A DNA stretch of 61,327 nt, from the NCBI GenBank assembly GCA_964399675.1, contig CAYNRK010000002.1, forward strand, positions 112,982 through 174,308. The letters are read 5' to 3'. A program made the translations under genes and the position numbers. Within the stretch, counting starts at the first letter, position 1. Each line of letters begins with the position of its first letter. Positions 17,691 to 46,468 of this stretch are shown one piece after another. A model generated the notes under the pieces. It saw nothing but the letters and a program-made list of their open reading frames with translations, was not told the origin of the DNA and did no database searches. The DNA comes from an uncultured Gammaproteobacteria bacterium. Its GTDB lineage: Bacteria > Patescibacteriota > Patescibacteriia > UBA9934 > GWF2-40-263.

Positions 17691-17712
17691 AATCCTAACG
17701 ACCGTTAGGATT
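17691..17712. repeat. Palindrome AATCCTAACG-AC-CGTTAGGATT (degenerate CGATCG-type core)
   Basis: 10-bp perfect arms; core CGACCG. Confidence 0.55.
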
Positions 17713-17816
17713 GTTATCCACAATTTGCTATTTTTTGACTAAGTCGAGTAAAGGTGAAATTGTCAAGCAAAAAACACATTTATGCAAAAAAGGGGGGAAC
17801 GAATCTTGTCAATCCT

Positions 17817-19184
17817 TTACTTGGATTGGACAAGCCTGCGCGCAACAGAATCAACATCCCCTGCTCCCATTACAATAAGAACATCCGTAGAAGGCGCGAT
17901 TTCTCTAAAAAGCTCGTGTGCATGATCTAAATCACGAGCGAATTGAATTTCTGGTTTTTGTATTTTATTCACAATATCTTGTGATGAAATTGATTGATCT
18001 TCATTTCTCCCAGCAACATCATAAACTTCGCTCAAGATTACAGGGAGATCTAGTTGACTTAACACTTTAATAAAATCATCAAACAGCTTTTCTGTTCTTG
18101 AGTGTTGATGAGGTTGATAACACAAAACGATTTTTTTATTTGGGAAAAATTCTTTTGCTGCTTCAATCGTGGCCTTAATTGCTGTTGGATGATGACCGTA
18201 ATCAGAAATCACTTCTGTATTCTGATGCGTTCCAACGCGTTCAAAACGGCGCCAGATTCCACCAAATGATTCAAGCGCTTTTTTACAGGTTTCAAATGGC
18301 ACACCAAGTTCCATTGCAGCTGTTGTGGCTGCAAGAGCATTCATGACATTAAAAGCACCAGGAACTGCAAGAGATAGTTTTCCAAGCTCAGTTTTAATTT
18401 CTTCATTGCGACAAATGTTAACCGCTTGCACACCAGACTTTGTTTCTCGATTCGCACCAAAATAGTCTGCGCTGGTTTCTAATCCATAACTTACGCCTTT
18501 GGAGATGTTTAGCTTTTTAATCTGCTCATCGTGTTTATTGAAAATAGTCAAACCTTTGCCTGTAAGTTTGTCTACAAAAATTTGGAACGTCTCTCTAACA
18601 TGATCAATGTTACGATAATAATCCAAATGATCCTCTTCAATATTTGTGAGCACAATCATCTCAGGAGCCATCTCAATCATGTTGGCTTGATACTCACAAC
18701 CCTCTACAACAAAAAACCTTCCTTTTCCAATTCGCAAATTTCCATGTTCAAATCCAGGAACCAAAGAACCAACCAAAACGGTTGGATCATAACCGGCCTC
18801 TTCAAGAATAAGACCGAGCATTGTGGTTGTTGTGCTTTTTCCATGCGTGCCTGTAACTACAATTGTTGAAAATTCTTTTGAAAGTTCTCCAAGAGCCTGA
18901 GCATAAGAAAGTTCTTGAATACCCTTTTCTCTTGCAGCAATTCGCTCAGCATTATCTTCTGGTACGGCAATTGAATAAATAACAAGATCAGCATCCTTAA
19001 CCTGATCTGCAGCATGACCTGAAAAAATCTCAGCTCCTATTTTTTTAACCCCATCTGTAATTTCACTCAAACACAAATCCGAACCGGAAACTGATTTGCC
19101 CTGAAACAAGCACCATTTTGCAACGGCTGCCATACCAATTCCTCCGATTCCAATAAAATGTATTTTGTTTGCTTTTTGCAGCAT
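17817..19184 (-). CDS. murC: UDP-N-acetylmuramate--L-alanine ligase MurC
   Basis: IHFIGIGGIGM, VTGTHGKSTTT, NIEEDHLDYY, DYGHHPTAI. Confidence 0.95.
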   Translation of the reverse strand: MLQKANKIHFIGIGGIGMAAVAKWCLFQGKSVSGSDLCLSEITDGVKKIGAEIFSGHAADQVKDADLVIYSIAVPEDNAERIAAREKGIQELSYAQALGELSKEFSTIVVTGTHGKSTTTTMLGLILEEAGYDPTVLVGSLVPGFEHGNLRIGKGRFFVVEGCEYQANMIEMAPEMIVLTNIEEDHLDYYRNIDHVRETFQIFVDKLTGKGLTIFNKHDEQIKKLNISKGVSYGLETSADYFGANRETKSGVQAVNICRNEEIKTELGKLSLAVPGAFNVMNALAATTAAMELGVPFETCKKALESFGGIWRRFERVGTHQNTEVISDYGHHPTAIKATIEAAKEFFPNKKIVLCYQPHQHSRTEKLFDDFIKVLSQLDLPVILSEVYDVAGRNEDQSISSQDIVNKIQKPEIQFARDLDHAHELFREIAPSTDVLIVMGAGDVDSVARRLVQSK

Positions 19185-19278
19185 ATTGAGTAAAAAACCT
19201 ACACCAAATATAACAGATTGTCAATGAATAAAATAGGAGCAAAAAATTTTCAAAAAGAAAAACGCCAGGACAGTGTGC

Positions 19279-20526
19279 CTAGCGCCGCAGTTGTTCTGTG
19301 CGATCGGTCGTGGACACGACCAGATCGTGGAACACAGAGTTGTATCGAACCGAACCGTCGGGGTTCCACCCTAGATTCCAACAGAAAGGAACCGGGCTGT
19401 GTTTACGTGTGTACACACATGGTCTGTGAAACGTTCCGTCATCAAGAACCACGGATGCAACATGACCAAGGTCATCAACCAGAACGTCCTGAACAACCTG
19501 ACCTGGCTCTGCTGTGAAGACCTGGTTTGGTGTGACAACTTGCTGAGTGCTCTGAGCACTCCAACGATCGTCTGTTACAATCGCTGCGATCGTTTGGCCT
19601 TTTGGCGACCATCGAAGATCTTGCTTTCGCATGGTGAATTGGCCCTCATGCACCAAATCACCATTGAGATACAATTCTCTGCCTTCTTGCTCGCTCGTGC
19701 TTCGCACAAGCCATGCAAGCGAATGTGTTGACGGCGATGTCCAGGCGGCTTCTACAACACCGGGAACCACAATCTCGCGCGCAACTGCAGAGCCGTTATC
19801 GCACTGCAAGCCAATCGGTCTGATCACAGAACACGGCCCTTTACGAAGAACCGCCAGGAACGAGTTGTTCCAGCAGAGGATGTCTAGCGGTCTTTCCCCC
19901 TTGTGGAGATAAACAGCTGCCCAATCCTTGAACAAACCGTCTTTGACGCGATAGCGGTAGTATGTTCCATTGATCTGCTCAAGAACAAGTAGACTGCCGT
20001 CGTGTAGCACGTTGACAATCGCACCCTGTTCCAGATGCAAAGGTCCTTGTGGCAAGAGTGCGGTGTGTGTGCCAATCGGATCCTTTTCGTTACGCCCGAT
20101 CGGCATCAGACCTTCTGGAGTCGGTCTCAGGCTTGTAAGCTCCTGGAGCTCGTGAAGAAGACAGACTCCGTCACAAGTTACGTGAAAGACACCAACAACC
20201 CAGTTGAACCAACCCCACACCTTTACCGACTCTGGATAAACTCCCAAGATGCGAAGGCCTTCACGAGCCTGCTTGGGATTCGTGGACCCAAACGCATATC
20301 TGGAAAAGTCTGCTCCGCTGTGAACCAGCCTTTGTTCTCCGTACGAACTTGACTCAACCATGCAGAAATGTTCACCATCTCCGCTTGTGGCAAACTGGTT
20401 GCCGTTGATCAAATCCCGGAGCATCTTAGGATCAGGAACACCGGGAAGTCGGTGGATATAAGCGAAGTCGCCCGTGAGCAAGGAGTTGTCCACGGCGAAG
20501 TGTATTGGCAGCCTTTCAGCTGTCAT
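19279..20526 (-). CDS. Hypothetical protein (GC-rich, beta-rich, possibly propeller-like)
   Basis: 415-aa ORF with GGAGG RBS; WSPKG/WNPDG/TSPST blade-like motifs. Confidence 0.75.
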   Translation of the reverse strand: MTAERLPIHFAVDNSLLTGDFAYIHRLPGVPDPKMLRDLINGNQFATSGDGEHFCMVESSSYGEQRLVHSGADFSRYAFGSTNPKQAREGLRILGVYPESVKVWGWFNWVVGVFHVTCDGVCLLHELQELTSLRPTPEGLMPIGRNEKDPIGTHTALLPQGPLHLEQGAIVNVLHDGSLLVLEQINGTYYRYRVKDGLFKDWAAVYLHKGERPLDILCWNNSFLAVLRKGPCSVIRPIGLQCDNGSAVAREIVVPGVVEAAWTSPSTHSLAWLVRSTSEQEGRELYLNGDLVHEGQFTMRKQDLRWSPKGQTIAAIVTDDRWSAQSTQQVVTPNQVFTAEPGQVVQDVLVDDLGHVASVVLDDGTFHRPCVYTRKHSPVPFCWNLGWNPDGSVRYNSVFHDLVVSTTDRTEQLRR

Positions 20527-20582
20527 GTAGCACCTCCGTAGAACATCTCTTTTAACACCCGCGAGATTGAGAGCGTCAACTA

Positions 20583-20611
20583 AACCTAGCTATTTTATGT
20601 ATATTTGTCAA
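20583..20611 (-). promoter_or_regulatory. Promoter TTGACA-N17-TAGGTT
   Basis: Upstream of the 415-aa gene. Confidence 0.55.
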
Positions 20612-20727
20612 CATGTATTTGACCACGTAAAATGGTCTGGCTGACTCTTTTTAAGAAAATAAATTCTATGTTGTAAAAGGCAAAAAAACACACTTTCTCT
20701 TTTATTCTTTTTTTGCCTAAAAAACAT

Positions 20728-45854: not shown

Positions 45855-45891
45855 ACTCGTTACTTAGCGAACCTGATCCCTCTTTCAAACC

Positions 45892-45986
45892 AAAAATACT
45901 TATAAAATACTTCTCGATCGAGAAGTATTTTATAAGTATTTTTTTCTAAAGCAAAACAAGCCTACTCGGCTTGTTTTGCTATTGTT
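45892..45986. repeat. Module: perfect 52-bp CGATCG palindrome plus AGCAAAACAAGCC hairpin (copy 1)
   Basis: AAAAATACTTATAAAATACTTCT-CGATCG-AGAAGTATTTTATAAGTATTTTT, then AGCAAAACAAGCC-TACTC-GGCTTGTTTTGCT. Confidence 0.9.
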
Positions 45987-46046
45987 ATATTGGACATAGA
46001 AAGAAAGGACGCCCGTTGGCTGAAAAACCAAACGGGCGCAGATGCG

Positions 46047-46313
46047 TAGTGGAGCGACCCGGAGTCGAACCGGCGCCTCCCTTCCAGAAACCCAGCAACA
46101 GCTCTTCCCAACAGGGTTGAGACTTTTCAGTGTGACGGTGAGTCTTTCACCCCTCCGTCCTCCTCCCGCGCCTACCACTACTCGCGGTACTGGTTCAACA
46201 CGGACGCTCTCTGCCTGAGCTAATCCACACTTACTTTAGTGTCAGCCGCTCCTCGACTGATCTATTGCCTTCGTTCCAGAGGACGCTCTTCCCAATGTTG
46301 AGCTTGTCGCCCC
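46047..46313 (-). ncRNA. 267-nt tRNA-like RNA with Ala-type acceptor and an extended anticodon-arm domain (tmRNA-like or intron-containing tRNA; unresolved)
   Basis: 5' GGGGCGA pairs with 3' TCGCTCC-A (G3:U70); GCTC/GAGC D-stem; GGTTCGACTCC T-arm; long-range helices CCTCT/GGAGG, GGAAC/GTTTC, GGCAATAG/CTGTTGCT. Confidence 0.6.
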
Positions 46314-46327
46314 TAACTGCAGATCGA

Positions 46328-46356
46328 AGATTACTTCACCTAAGTGTCCATGTCAA
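46328..46356 (-). promoter_or_regulatory. Promoter TTGACA-N17-TAATCT of the tRNA-like RNA
   Basis: -10 element 14 nt upstream of GGGGCGA. Confidence 0.65.
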
Positions 46357-46375
46357 GTTTGTTTTAAAAACCAAA

Positions 46376-46468
46376 AAAAATACTTTGAAAAAAGTTCACG
46401 ATCGTGAAATATTTTCAAAGTATTCTTCTAAAGCAAAACAAACCTACCCGGCTTGTTTTGCTATTGTT
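46376..46468. repeat. Module: CGATCG palindrome plus AGCAAAACAA hairpin (copy 2), overlapping the YbaK-like stop
   Basis: AATACTTTGAAAAAAGTTCA-CGATCG-TGAAATATTTTCAAAGTATT, then AGCAAAACAAACC-TACCC-GGCTTGTTTTGCT. Confidence 0.85.

What the first reader, a model, noticed from the sequence alone, without database searches (positions are those of the whole stretch)
17691..46468. Second palindrome family (CGATCG core) sits at the borders of GC-rich cassettes
Seen: long perfect or near-perfect palindromes with a CGATCG centre at 22684, 22789, 28403 (54 bp perfect), 38289, 45892 (52 bp perfect) and 46379, plus a CGACCG variant at 17691. They have no real loop, so they are unlike terminators. Arms fall into subfamilies (22789, 45892 and 46379 share AAAATACTT-type arms). 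Each is intergenic beside a compositionally foreign unit (22167, 28593 and 37780 genes; tRNA-like RNA; 17539 hairpin). Inference: same design as the CATATG family, so possibly the cognate sites of another Cas2/PaaX-like paralog and possibly insertion hotspots.
Basis: partly seen in the sequence, partly recalled or inferred. Interest (0 to 1): 0.7.

Follow-up and report, generated by a model that had tools for sequence, protein, structure and literature searches.

The report
Palindromes paired with PaaX/Cas2-like genes
A tiny-genome groundwater bacterium (Patescibacteria) carries a family of 32-54 bp DNA palindromes centred on CGATCG that match the pairs bracketing two small PaaX/Cas2-like genes just outside the window, which suggests an undescribed protein-plus-repeat system laid out like REP elements and their transposase.

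Summary
All 11 loop-less palindromes in the window that scored 10 or more have one of three cores: CGATCG (5), CATATG (5) or TCGCGA (1). Simulated sequence gives 0-1 such palindromes. A sixth CGATCG element (22684) has an internal bubble. The CGACCG hairpin at 17691 is an ordinary terminator and not a member.

On the same scaffold, 5 kb and 25 kb upstream of the window, two PaaX_M/Cas2-like genes are each bracketed by CGATCG palindromes. Their arms equal the solo copies in the window: A-type matches 45892, 46379 and 22789; B-type matches 38289. Two more paralogs are bracketed by CATATG palindromes. Bracketing recurs in all seven family members I could read, including three from other organisms.

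The protein is an ArsR-like winged helix plus a Cas2-like domain. Its best structural match is E. coli PaaX.

Five of eight solo copies start 5-38 nt after a stop codon, and most have T-tracts, so they are shaped like bidirectional terminators. All seven CGATCG loci lie within about 115 nt of a GC-rich unit, including a tmRNA-like gene and a TIGR-Tas-like island.

Best reading: these are cognate binding sites of autoregulated PaaX-like proteins, organised like REP/RAYT. Binding, mobility and any insertion-hotspot role are untested.

The parts
22684..22727 (.). CGATCG palindrome, D-type. It has 14-bp perfect outer arms (ATTCCAATACTATT) and a 5-nt bubble on each side of an exactly central CGATCG.
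   Evidence: It starts 68 nt after the stop of the GC-rich 149-aa ORF, behind another hairpin at 22627-22658.
22789..22826 (.). CGATCG palindrome, A-type, 38 bp perfect (CTTATAAAATACTTCA|CGATCG|...).
   Evidence: It lies 31 nt upstream of the folD GTG start. Its arms equal those bracketing the L015 paralog.
28403..28456 (.). CGATCG palindrome, C-type, 54 bp perfect, with A6/T6 tracts.
   Evidence: RNA fold about -40 kcal/mol on both strands. It starts 27 nt after the stop of the HAD-like gene. Its right arm is identical to the solo at L029 6427-6488.
38289..38320 (.). CGATCG palindrome, B-type, 32 bp with 1 mismatch (A.C on the + strand, which is G.U on the - strand).
   Evidence: It sits between tgt (-) and the GC-rich 129-aa ORF (-). 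Its arms GACTATTTT...AAAATAGTC equal those bracketing paralog P0220 in L029. It contains a TAGACT-18-TAAAAT promoter-like pair.
45892..45943 (.). CGATCG palindrome, A-type, 52 bp perfect. Each arm is two tandem 11-mers, AAAATACTT(A/C)T.
   Evidence: It starts 38 nt after the stop of a 155-aa membrane ORF and is convergent with the tmRNA-like gene. Its inner 36 bp are identical to L015 17822-17857.
46376..46427 (.). CGATCG palindrome, A-type, 89% self-complementary. It differs from 45892 by compensated changes that preserve the palindrome.
   Evidence: It lies 17 nt downstream of the ybaK-like stop on the - strand and has a T8 tract on that strand.
45892..45986 (+). Left copy of a 95-nt direct repeat (palindrome plus hairpin AGCAAAACAAGCC...GGCTTGTTTTGCT) that flanks the tmRNA-like gene.
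   Evidence: 85% identical to 46376-46468. The right copy contains the last codons and the stop of the ybaK-like gene.
46376..46468 (+). Right copy of the 95-nt direct repeat.
46049..46313 (-). GC-rich tRNA-like, tmRNA-like RNA of 265 nt.
   Evidence: 5' GGGGCGAC pairs with 3' GUCGCUCC, with G.U at the third pair. It has a T-arm GGUUCGACUCC, a TTGACA-17-TAATCT promoter and its own terminator at 46010-46039. ARAGORN and Rfam do not call it.
17687..17716 (-). CGACCG/CGGTCG hairpin. It is an ordinary intrinsic terminator after murC and not a member of the family.
   Evidence: 9-bp stem, 4-nt loop, T-tract on the - strand, arms unrelated to the family.
30188..30781 (-). PaaX_M/Cas2-like gene o30188, the only family member inside the window. 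It is bracketed by CATATG palindromes at 30160-30197 and 30755-30792.
   Evidence: Pfam PaaX_M 1.4e-5 and Cas2 9e-4. Palindromes. AlphaFold2 model with pLDDT 87; best PDB match is PaaX 8a39.
2324..2513 (.). Cluster of three solo CATATG palindromes (2324-2357, 2401-2438, 2472-2513) of two arm types, upstream of the GC-rich 299-aa ORF.
   Evidence: The arm types match o30188 (ATTGATGTAAAG) and paralog P0123 in L024 (GTACATTA).
22167..22616 (+). GC-rich 149-aa membrane ORF next to 22684 and 22789.
   Evidence: GC by codon position 0.59/0.48/0.61, against a native GC3 of about 0.3. No Pfam or NCBIfam hit.
28581..29162 (+). GC-rich 193-aa ORF downstream of 28403.
   Evidence: GC3 0.59. No family hit.
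37780..38169 (-). GC-rich 129-aa ORF whose upstream region holds 38289.
   Evidence: GC3 0.55. No family hit.

Best explanation
**What it is.** The CGATCG palindromes are discrete 32-54 bp repeat elements. They are the cognate DNA sites of one clade of a family of small proteins of about 170-200 aa. Each protein has an ArsR/PadR-like winged helix followed by a Cas2-like (PaaX_M) domain.

**Bracket copies.** Each paralogous gene sits between two copies of its own palindrome type.
- The upstream copy overlaps promoter-like hexamers and the start region. A dimer bound there would repress its own gene.
- The downstream copy abuts or overlaps the stop codon.

**Solo copies.** Copies with the same arms are scattered in intergenic DNA.
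- Most sit a few to 40 nt after stop codons and have acquired A/T tracts.
- On the RNA they would fold as long hairpins with a GAUC loop and act as bidirectional intrinsic terminators or boundary elements.
- They lie preferentially at the edges of GC-rich acquired genes and structured-RNA loci.

**Shown:** the elements, their arm subfamilies, the gene bracketing, the protein fold, the positions and the compositional association.

**Inferred:** that the protein binds the palindrome, that it autoregulates, and that the solo copies terminate transcription.
For: **(1) Non-random families.** Only the CGATCG, CATATG and TCGCGA cores occur among the 11 strong loop-less palindromes; simulations give 0-1.

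**(2) Bracketing by CGATCG palindromes, with arms matching the solos.**
- L015 17309-17821 is flanked by GGAAAAA(A)TAGTTATAAAATACTTCTCGATCG on both sides. The downstream 36-bp palindrome is identical to the inner 36 bp of window 45892.
- L029 10001-10519 is flanked by AGACTATTTTCCGACGATCG... copies. These are identical to the solo at L024 17510 and near-identical to window 38289.

**(3) Bracketing is a family trait, seen in 7 of 7 genes read.**
- o30188, P0123 and P0124: CATATG.
- The two paralogs above: CGATCG.
- P0207: CGGCCG.
- P0249: TGTTGACAT-N19-ATGTCAACA.
- Sources.

**(4) Protein clade tracks the core.** The CGATCG paralogs are 49% identical to each other and the CATATG paralogs 41-44%. 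Between the two clades identity is 29-36%.

**(5) The protein looks DNA-binding.**
- PaaX_M at 56 bits.
- Profile matches to ArsR/CzrA winged-helix repressors (2e-4) and to Cas2 (7.6e-5).
- AlphaFold2 pLDDT 87, and the top Foldseek hit is E. coli PaaX 8a39.

**(6) The core is self-complementary in three families.** Across the 12 copies, positions 4-19 change in sequence but stay complementary. This symmetry is what a homodimer on duplex DNA, or a function that works on both strands, would require.

**(7) Promoter-like hexamers in the upstream copies.** Examples are TAGACT-18-TAAAAT followed 10 nt later by ATG for P0220, and TTGATC-17-TAAAAT for the L015 paralog.

**(8) Solo copies sit at gene ends.** They start 5-38 nt after stop codons, carry T-tracts, and are called terminator-like.

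**(9) GC-rich adjacency.** 7 of 7 loci.
Against: - No binding or expression data exist. The link between protein and site is purely associative.
- Perfect palindromes of 52-54 bp are much longer than a winged-helix dimer needs.
- Most solo copies lie at 3' ends rather than in promoters.
- C-type and D-type arms have no known cognate gene in the roughly 111 kb that I could read.
- Homolog P0249 belongs to the CGATCG clade by sequence, but it is bracketed by inverted hairpin copies with no palindromic hexamer core. Core and clade therefore do not track perfectly.
- The 34-36 bp identities between distant loci, and the sharp element boundaries, look more like copying than like operator conservation.
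- The two gene-bracketing downstream copies checked (L015, L029) lack T-tracts, so they are not canonical terminators.
Confidence: 0.5

Rival explanations
1. This is a mobile REP/RAYT-like system. The wHTH-Cas2-like protein is a nuclease or recombination factor that copies or moves its flanking palindromes. The solo copies are non-autonomous derivatives, comparable to REP/REPIN elements or IS200/IS605 end hairpins.
For: - The units are discrete, 34-36 bp, with sharp boundaries and identical sequence at distant loci.
- Each gene is bracketed by its own element type, and several paralog/element pairs coexist in one genome, as RAYT/REPIN pairs do.
- In L032 the two bracket copies are inverted, like terminal inverted repeats.
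- The elements are lineage-specific: relatives with 80% GlyA identity have none.
- The Asp of the Cas2 beta1 motif is invariant in 60 family members.
- A 95-nt direct repeat containing the palindrome flanks the tmRNA-like gene.
Against: - There is no HUH/Tyr or other transposase signature. The only invariant residues are D, P and S.
- The best structural match is a transcription factor, PaaX.
- No target-site duplications flank the solo copies.
- No presence/absence polymorphism was seen; all strain copies are 100% identical.
- No solo copies were found in the 5-20 kb loci of the three other organisms.
Confidence: 0.2
2. The palindromes are only intrinsic bidirectional transcription terminators that spread by duplication. 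Their presence around the PaaX-like genes is incidental.
For: - The terminator scan calls 28403, 45892 and 22789.
- Predicted RNA hairpins range from -13 to -41 kcal/mol, with A/T tracts.
- Five of eight solo copies start 5-38 nt after a stop codon.
- The internal mismatch in 38289 is G.U on the transcribed strand.
Against: - This does not explain why the loop-forming centre is self-complementary and invariant in 12 of 12 copies while the stems vary.
- It does not explain why a second family uses CATATG.
- It does not explain why 7 of 7 family genes are bracketed both upstream and downstream, including upstream copies that overlap promoters and starts.
- The genome's ordinary terminators are short GC-rich stems with unrelated loops.
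Confidence: 0.12
3. The palindromes are core sites for site-specific recombination or targeted insertion (dif/pdif-, attC- or lox-like: inverted arms around a 6-bp crossover region). GC-rich cassettes are captured at these sites.
For: - The shape fits: inverted arms plus a 6-bp centre.
- 7 of 7 CGATCG loci abut GC-rich units.
- The 3.4-kb TIGR-Tas/IS110-like island in L029 lies exactly between two CGATCG palindromes.
- The tmRNA-like gene and a NUDIX gene (L024 9488-9949) are each bracketed by palindrome pairs.
- Several bracket copies have one good arm and one degenerate arm, as hybrid attL/attR sites would.
- From my own knowledge: IS110-family elements are known to target REP-like palindromes.
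Against: - No integrase or recombinase gene lies in the window or next to most cassettes.
- Three of the four GC-rich units in the window have a CGATCG palindrome on one side only.
- Half of all sizeable intergenic regions border a GC-rich unit anyway.
- Core genes such as fmt and ybaK also carry the palindromes at their 3' ends.
Confidence: 0.1
4. The shared core reflects a restriction-modification or methylation motif (PvuI-type CGATCG, Dam GATC), or a cyanobacterial HIP1-like hyper-iterated motif.
For: CGATCG and CATATG are classical type II restriction sites, and HIP1 (GCGATCGC) contains CGATCG (my own knowledge).
Against: - CGATCG is neither avoided nor strongly enriched outside the palindromes (21 copies against 15.5 expected).
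- The base flanking the core is A/T, not G...C, so the HIP1 octamer is absent.
- No methyltransferase or restriction gene is in the window.
- This reading does not explain the long arms or the gene bracketing.
Confidence: 0.03

Closest known systems
REP/REPIN elements and their RAYT (REP-associated tyrosine transposase) genes
   Same: - Short palindromic units of about 35 bp, extragenic and mostly at gene 3' ends.
- Several sequence families per genome.
- Each family is tied to one gene that is itself flanked by two copies.
- Clusters of elements occur (2324-2513).
   Different: - The associated gene is a wHTH plus Cas2-like (PaaX_M) protein, not a Y1/HUH transposase.
- The palindromes are perfect through the centre, with an invariant self-complementary hexamer.
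- The stems are AT-rich.
- Mobility has not been shown.
PaaX (E. coli phenylacetate repressor) and its palindromic operators
   Same: - Winged helix followed by a Cas2-like middle domain; PaaX is the top structural match (8a39).
- Palindromic target sites.
- A site overlapping the promoter would give autoregulation.
   Different: - No PaaX C-terminal ligand domain.
- 20-22 bits against a 264.55-bit cut-off for the PaaX equivalog model.
- The sites are 32-54 bp, present on both sides of the gene, and dispersed at 3' ends.
Cas2 of CRISPR adaptation modules
   Same: - The C-terminal domain keeps the beta1-alpha1-beta2 signature (FD[FI]P...R..R.FL...GF...Q.SVW) with the invariant Asp.
- It is associated with palindromic repeats, and 'repeat-insert-repeat' units occur.
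   Different: - No Cas1, no CRISPR array and no regular spacing.
- It is fused to a DNA-binding winged helix.
- The scores are below the Cas2 family cut-offs.
Bidirectional intrinsic (Rho-independent) terminators
   Same: Hairpin plus T-tract in both orientations, located just after stop codons, often between convergent units.
   Different: - Stems of 16-27 bp that are AT-rich and perfect.
- An invariant palindromic loop/centre.
- Sequence families shared between loci and with the brackets of a gene family.
Xer/pdif modules and integron attC sites
   Same: Imperfect or perfect inverted arms around a 6-bp centre at the borders of small gene units; arrays of the form site-gene-site-gene-site.
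   Different: No recombinase or integrase nearby, no attC-type extrahelical bases or R'/R'' cores, and most units carry a site on one side only.
Cyanobacterial HIP1 (GCGATCGC)
   Same: It contains the CGATCG hexamer.
   Different: The organism is not a cyanobacterium, the octamer is absent (A/T flanks the core), and the feature here is a long palindrome rather than an over-represented octamer.

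Membership tests
REP elements / RAYT system | Short (about 20-60 bp) palindromic, extragenic, multi-copy units falling into sequence families | tested here: met
   12 CGATCG units of 32-54 bp in about 111 kb, all outside core ORFs, with four arm types.
REP elements / RAYT system | Associated gene is a Y1 (HUH) tyrosine transposase (PF01797) flanked by the REPs | tested here: not met
   The flanked gene is PaaX_M/Cas2-like. No Y1_Tnp hit appeared among the window ORFs scanned, and the family has no invariant His or Tyr. 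A Y1_Tnp gene exists only in a relative that lacks these palindromes.
Intrinsic terminators | Stem-loop immediately followed by a U-tract, downstream of a stop codon | tested here: met
   Met for 28403, 45892, 46376 (- strand), 22789, L024 17510 and L029 6427. Not met for 38289 or for the two bracket copies downstream of the paralogs.
Intrinsic terminators | Termination of transcription in vivo | not testable with these tools
   No RNA-seq or Term-seq data are available.
PaaX family regulators | N-terminal winged helix plus central Cas2-like domain (PF20803) | tested here: met
   PF20803 at 56 bits (cut-off 24) for the L015 paralog and 25.5 bits for o30188. ArsR-type wHTH match by profile. Foldseek top hit is 8a39 PaaX.
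PaaX family regulators | Full-length equivalog including the C-terminal domain (TIGR02277, cut-off 264.55 bits) | tested here: not met
   20-22 bits, covering only positions 42-150 of the 279-position model. The proteins end after the Cas2-like domain.
Cas2 (CRISPR adaptation) | Cas2 fold with the beta1 Asp motif | tested here: met
   D135 is invariant in 60 sequences. Alignment to II-A Cas2 (MFDMP...FRKFL...GF.M.Q.SVY). Foldseek hits to Cas2 chains with TM(target) 0.45-0.59.
Cas2 (CRISPR adaptation) | Encoded with cas1 next to a CRISPR array; score above the family cut-off | tested here: not met
   No cas1 and no array in the window or the loci. TIGR01573 scores 17-24 bits, below its 24.5-bit cut-off.
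Tyrosine-recombinase core sites (dif/pdif, attC, lox) | Inverted binding arms around a 6-8 bp central region | tested here: met
   The geometry fits.
Tyrosine-recombinase core sites (dif/pdif, attC, lox) | A cognate recombinase and recombination products (occupied and empty sites) | tested here: inconclusive
   No recombinase lies in the window. All strain copies are identical, and relatives are too distant to show empty sites.
MITEs | Terminal inverted repeats flanked by target-site duplications | tested here: not met
   No direct repeats flank the solo palindromes.
HIP1 (cyanobacteria) | Octamer GCGATCGC, highly over-represented genome-wide | tested here: not met
   The base next to the core is A or T in all 12 copies. 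CGATCG occurs 21 times against 15.5 expected. The host is Patescibacteria.

The most novel reading that the evidence does not exclude
The wHTH-Cas2-like proteins and their palindromes form a previously unrecognised, active repeat system. The Cas2-homologous domain takes part in copying or inserting DNA at its cognate palindrome, which generates 'palindrome-insert-palindrome' units. Candidate examples are the paralog genes themselves, the tmRNA-like gene, a NUDIX gene and a TIGR-Tas island. Such a system would be a free-standing relative of the repeat-duplicating chemistry of CRISPR adaptation, or a REP/RAYT analogue built on a different fold.
Probability: 0.12. Interest if true: 0.85.

Novelty: new variant of a known kind. 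Interest (0 to 1): 0.66.

Why it matters
- **A conserved, undescribed layout.** The gene family has 411 clusters at 50% identity in a 1.84-billion-protein library. Every member whose DNA I could read sits between two copies of its own palindrome. I found no paper describing this arrangement.
- **If the proteins bind the sites,** Patescibacteria would have a modular regulator/boundary system. Small genomes might use it to wall off acquired genes and highly transcribed RNA loci.
- **If the proteins move the sites,** this is a REP/RAYT-like system built on a Cas2-type fold. That would bear on how palindromic repeats and Cas2 first became associated.
- **Practical use.** The 34-54 bp perfect hairpins are candidate strong bidirectional terminators.

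Tried and rejected
- **Pattern scans.** I scanned for CTTATA-N10-CGATCG-N10-TATAAG in GTDB genomes and JGI metagenomes. Only four chance, non-palindromic hits came back, and the source genome is not in those collections.
- **Synteny with relatives.** Relatives with 80% GlyA identity (L012-L014) have no loop-less palindromes. They are too distant to show empty sites.
- **Strain polymorphism.** Eleven contigs from several samples are 100% identical over the shared stretches.
- **Word-indexed homology searches.** Searches with o30188 and with a 40-sequence profile returned almost only the query itself. The full HMMER scan was needed to find the family.
- **Viral contigs.** The clade profile found no relative.
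- **Decayed paralog genes next to solo copies.** tblastn found none.
- **Restriction-site avoidance and HIP1.** Rejected.
- **Transposase, integrase or R-M genes in the window.** None found by Pfam or PADLOC.
- **G.U versus A.C mismatch bias as a test of RNA-level selection.** There are too few internal mismatches and they point both ways.
- **Calling the 46049-46313 RNA.** ARAGORN and Rfam do not call it, even with relaxed settings.
- **TIGR-like stem arrays in the window's GC-rich units.** Absent; they are confined to L029.

Full report
**Source and setting**

The window is the last 61,327 nt of a metagenomic scaffold from ENA sample ERZ23499038 (scaffold_21, 174 kb). The same sequence also ends a 230-kb scaffold in ERZ23499079 and occurs in JGI assemblies. 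All copies are 100% identical over the shared stretches. The closest named GlyA homologues are from Candidatus Uhrbacteria / Patescibacteria. GC content is 41%. The genes are ordinary chromosomal ones: secA, secDF, murB, murC, glyA, folD, dnaB, recR, clpB-like, tgt, dnaJ, dnaK, grpE and hrcA. No transposase, integrase or restriction-modification gene was found.

Yes.
- 28403-28456: 54 bp, perfect.
- 45892-45943: 52 bp, perfect.
- 22789-22826: 38 bp, perfect.
- 38289-38320: 32 bp, one mismatch.
- 46376-46427: 52 bp, 89% complementary.
- 22684-22727: 14-bp outer arms, a 5-nt bubble on each side, and a CGATCG exactly at the centre.

A census of loop-less palindromes that tolerates mismatches found 11 elements of score 10 or more. 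Their cores are CATATG (5), CGATCG (5) and TCGCGA (1). Twenty Markov simulations of the window gave 0 or 1 such element each. The hexamer itself is not unusual, with 21 copies against 15.5 expected. The signal therefore lies in the long symmetric arms around a fixed centre.

The CGACCG 'variant' at 17691 is a 9-bp-stem hairpin with a T-tract behind murC, and its arms are unrelated to the family. I do not count it as a member.

**What the elements look like**

I found 12 CGATCG-centred palindromes in about 111 kb of this genome: the window, 8.7 kb upstream of it (L015), and two 20-kb loci (L029, L024). The core is invariant in all 12. The next base is A (or T) with its complement on the other side. 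Positions 4-19 differ between copies but remain complementary, with two to four different Watson-Crick pairs per position.

Four arm types exist:
- A: TTATAAAATACTTC(T/A).
- B: (A)GACTATTTT(CC/AC)(GA/AA).
- C: CACTTATACCA...GA.
- D: ATTCCAATACTATT.

Similarity between copies of one type starts and stops sharply at the palindrome ends, which defines discrete 34-36 bp units. 45892 and 46376 are diverged duplicates at 85% identity. Their differences are compensated on both arms, for example TTATAA/TTATAA against TTTGAA/TTCAAA.

**The link to a gene family**

The window holds one PaaX_M/Cas2-like gene, o30188 at 30188-30781. CATATG palindromes overlap its start region and its stop codon. Reading 8.7 kb beyond the window start revealed a second family member, L015 17309-17821. 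It scores PaaX_M E = 3.7e-15 and is 32% identical to o30188. It is flanked on both sides by GGAAAAA(A)TAGTTATAAAATACTTCTCGATCG. The downstream copy is a perfect 36-bp palindrome identical to the inner 36 bp of window 45892.

A full HMMER scan of 1.84 billion representative proteins found 411 family clusters. One of them, P0220, lies on the same scaffold 24.9 kb upstream of the window (L029). It is bracketed by B-type CGATCG palindromes identical or nearly identical to window 38289 and to the solo copy at L024 17510.

A fourth paralog, P0123, lies in L024. That locus comes from the same samples, has the same GC content and carries the same palindrome types, so it is probably the same genome. 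P0123 is bracketed by CATATG palindromes whose arms (GTACATTA) equal the solo copies at window 2324 and 2472.

Members from three other organisms are bracketed too:
- P0124 by CCATATGG sites. These are the only two occurrences of that octamer in 20.6 kb.
- P0207 by GGTATGCGAAAAGGTCCGGCCGGACC... copies lying inside the ends of its ORF.
- P0249 by inverted copies of TGTTGACAT-N19-ATGTCAACA.

Bracketing was thus seen in seven of the seven genes whose DNA I could read.

Within this genome the protein clades follow the cores. The CGATCG paralogs are 49% identical to each other and the CATATG paralogs 41-44%. Between clades identity is 29-36%. P0249 is the exception: by sequence it belongs with the CGATCG clade, but its sites have no hexamer palindrome at the centre.

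**What the protein is**

The family is typically about 160-200 aa. Its C-terminal half carries the Cas2 beta1-alpha1-beta2 signature. An Asp, a Pro and a Ser are invariant, and there is no conserved His or Tyr. A family profile matches II-A Cas2 chains (7.6e-5) with the C-terminal half. It matches ArsR/CzrA winged-helix repressors (about 2e-4) with the N-terminal half.

An AlphaFold2 model of o30188 has pLDDT 87 and pTM 0.79. Its best PDB match is E. coli PaaX (8a39, E = 4.7e-4, 180 aligned columns), followed by Cas2 chains. The proteins lack the PaaX C-terminal domain and score far below the PaaX equivalog cut-off. They work like a short PaaX-type DNA-binding protein but are not PaaX orthologues. 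They are also not Cas2 in the CRISPR sense, since there is no cas1 and no array.

**Where the solo copies sit**

Five of eight solo CGATCG copies begin 5-38 nt after a stop codon:
- 28403: 27 nt.
- 45892: 38 nt.
- 46376: 17 nt, on the - strand.
- L024 17510: 5 nt.
- L029 6427: 16 nt.

About six of the eight are followed by a T-tract in the direction of the upstream gene. The consensus scan calls 28403, 45892 and 22789 as terminators.

These elements still differ from the genome's ordinary terminators, which are short GC-rich stems with assorted loops. The two downstream bracket copies I checked (L015, L029) lack T-tracts. The upstream bracket copies contain promoter-like hexamers, for example TAGACT-18-TAAAAT followed 10 nt later by the ATG of P0220.

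**GC-rich neighbours**

Segments of 300 nt or more at about 50% GC or higher are scattered through the region. Their ORFs have GC3 of 0.52-0.79, against about 0.3 for native genes. All five CGATCG-bearing intergenic regions in the window border such a unit. However, half of all sizeable intergenic regions do so as well, which gives hypergeometric P = 0.02. With the three off-window loci the count is 7 of 7.

Two of these units are informative.
- **The RNA gene between 45892 and 46376.** The unit is a 265-nt RNA with a tRNA-like acceptor (G.U at the third pair), a T-arm, its own promoter and its own terminator. It looks like a tmRNA that ARAGORN and Rfam miss. It is flanked by a 95-nt direct repeat that includes the last codons of the ybaK-like gene.
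- **The island in L029.** A 3.4-kb GC-rich island lies exactly between a C-type palindrome and the upstream B-type palindrome of P0220. It encodes a 547-aa protein matching the TIGR-Tas endonuclease model (2.9e-17, below cut-off) and IS110 transposases (1e-6). The gene is surrounded by arrays of stem-loop units. This fits the 'stem array' TasR clade reported for CPR bacteria (PMC12045711).

**How it most likely works**

I favour the following reading (confidence 0.5). The palindromes are cognate duplex-DNA sites of the PaaX-type proteins. The upstream bracket copy overlaps the promoter and gives autoregulation. Solo copies act as protein-bound and/or RNA-hairpin boundary elements, that is bidirectional terminators, at gene ends and at the edges of acquired or heavily transcribed units.

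The elements, their families, the bracketing, the fold, the positions and the compositional association are shown. Binding, autoregulation and termination are inferred.

Two arguments support recognition at the DNA level. First, the centre is self-complementary in three independent families, which a one-strand hairpin function would not require. Second, the core tracks the protein clade.

The main rival (0.2) is that the system is mobile in the way REP/RAYT is. In its favour are the sharp 34-36 bp units that are identical at distant loci, the several paralog/element pairs in one genome, the inverted bracket copies in L032, the lineage specificity and the invariant Cas2 Asp. Against it are the absence of any transposase chemistry, of target-site duplications and of polymorphism.

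The other rivals are pure terminators (0.12), recombination or insertion sites (0.1) and a methylation/HIP1-type motif (0.03).

**Comparison with known systems and novelty**

In organisation this is closest to REP elements with their RAYT genes. However, the defining Y1 transposase is replaced by a winged-helix plus Cas2-like protein, so it is not a member of that system. I found no description of this gene-palindrome arrangement in the searchable literature. I rate it a new variant of a known kind. There is a small chance that it is an active repeat-handling system built on a Cas2 fold.

Noticed in passing
window 46049-46313 (- strand): A 265-nt GC-rich RNA with a tRNA-like acceptor stem (G.U at the third pair), the T-arm GGUUCGACUCC, a TTGACA-17-TAATCT promoter and its own terminator. 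It is probably a divergent tmRNA. ARAGORN and Rfam do not call it.
   Followed up: partly
L029 6490-9900 (same scaffold, about 26-29 kb upstream of the window): A GC-rich island (57-66% GC) with a 547-aa ORF (7119-8762). The ORF matches the TIGR-Tas endonuclease model (2.9e-17, below cut-off) and IS110 transposases. Arrays of stem-loop units (TTTTGCTGGTCGA...GACCAGCACC, GGGCGAGCG...CTCGCCCCTTT) lie on both sides of it. The island is bounded by CGATCG palindromes on both sides.
   Followed up: partly
window 6872-6951, 15972-16152, 39598-39803, 49518-49703: A GC-rich, MITE-like repeat of about 80-200 nt with ends TGTCATCTCGA...TCGAGATGACA. It has internal hairpins GGCCCGTCAGACGGGCC and GCCCGGCAGCTGCCGGGC. 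Four copies lie in intergenic regions, about 95% identical where they overlap.
   Followed up: partly
window 21977-22064 and 1097-1184; also 38684-38719, 39050-39083, 2679-2711: A repeated element made of G/C-run hairpins (CCCCTCCTTTTCAAGGAGGGG, GTCCCCCTTGAGAAGGGGGAC), 88% identical between two borders of GC-rich units. Related TCCCCCCTTGAAAAGGGGGGA hairpins occur inside the tgt and uppP reading frames and in the L029 island.
   Followed up: no
window 2324-2513: Three CATATG palindromes of two arm types stand in a row about 75 nt apart, between uppP and the GC-rich 299-aa ORF. Each GTACATTA-type copy is preceded by TTTTCAAGACTCA. The arrangement resembles the clustered REP arrays (BIMEs) of E. 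coli.
   Followed up: partly
L024 9419-9999: A NUDIX gene (9488-9949) is bracketed by CATATG palindromes (9419-9468 imperfect, 9964-9999). The second of these is also the upstream bracket of paralog P0123. The layout is palindrome-gene-palindrome-gene-palindrome.
   Followed up: no
window 56345-57823 (+): A leucyl aminopeptidase (Peptidase_M17) gene with 63% GC and GC3 of 0.79 in a 41% GC genome. This is a clear compositional outlier, and long ORFs run on both strands.
   Followed up: no
L012 410-1117 (relative, GCA_041294325.1): A Y1_Tnp (IS200/IS605 or RAYT-type) gene lies next to secA in a relative that has no loop-less palindromes and no CGATCG at all in 14 kb.
   Followed up: no
window 3296-6871 and 10009-10800: TrwB/VirD4-like ATPase (632 aa), a DUF8128 protein and an AAA protein. 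The 632-aa and 263-aa proteins have PADLOC 'mad8' hits (1.3e-17 and 9.4e-7). They could belong to a defence or DNA-transfer module.
   Followed up: no
protein P0189: A 960-aa database protein matches the beta1-alpha1 segment of the family (residues 128-154 of o30188) in 13 separate stretches. It is either a repeat protein or a translated repeat array.
   Followed up: no
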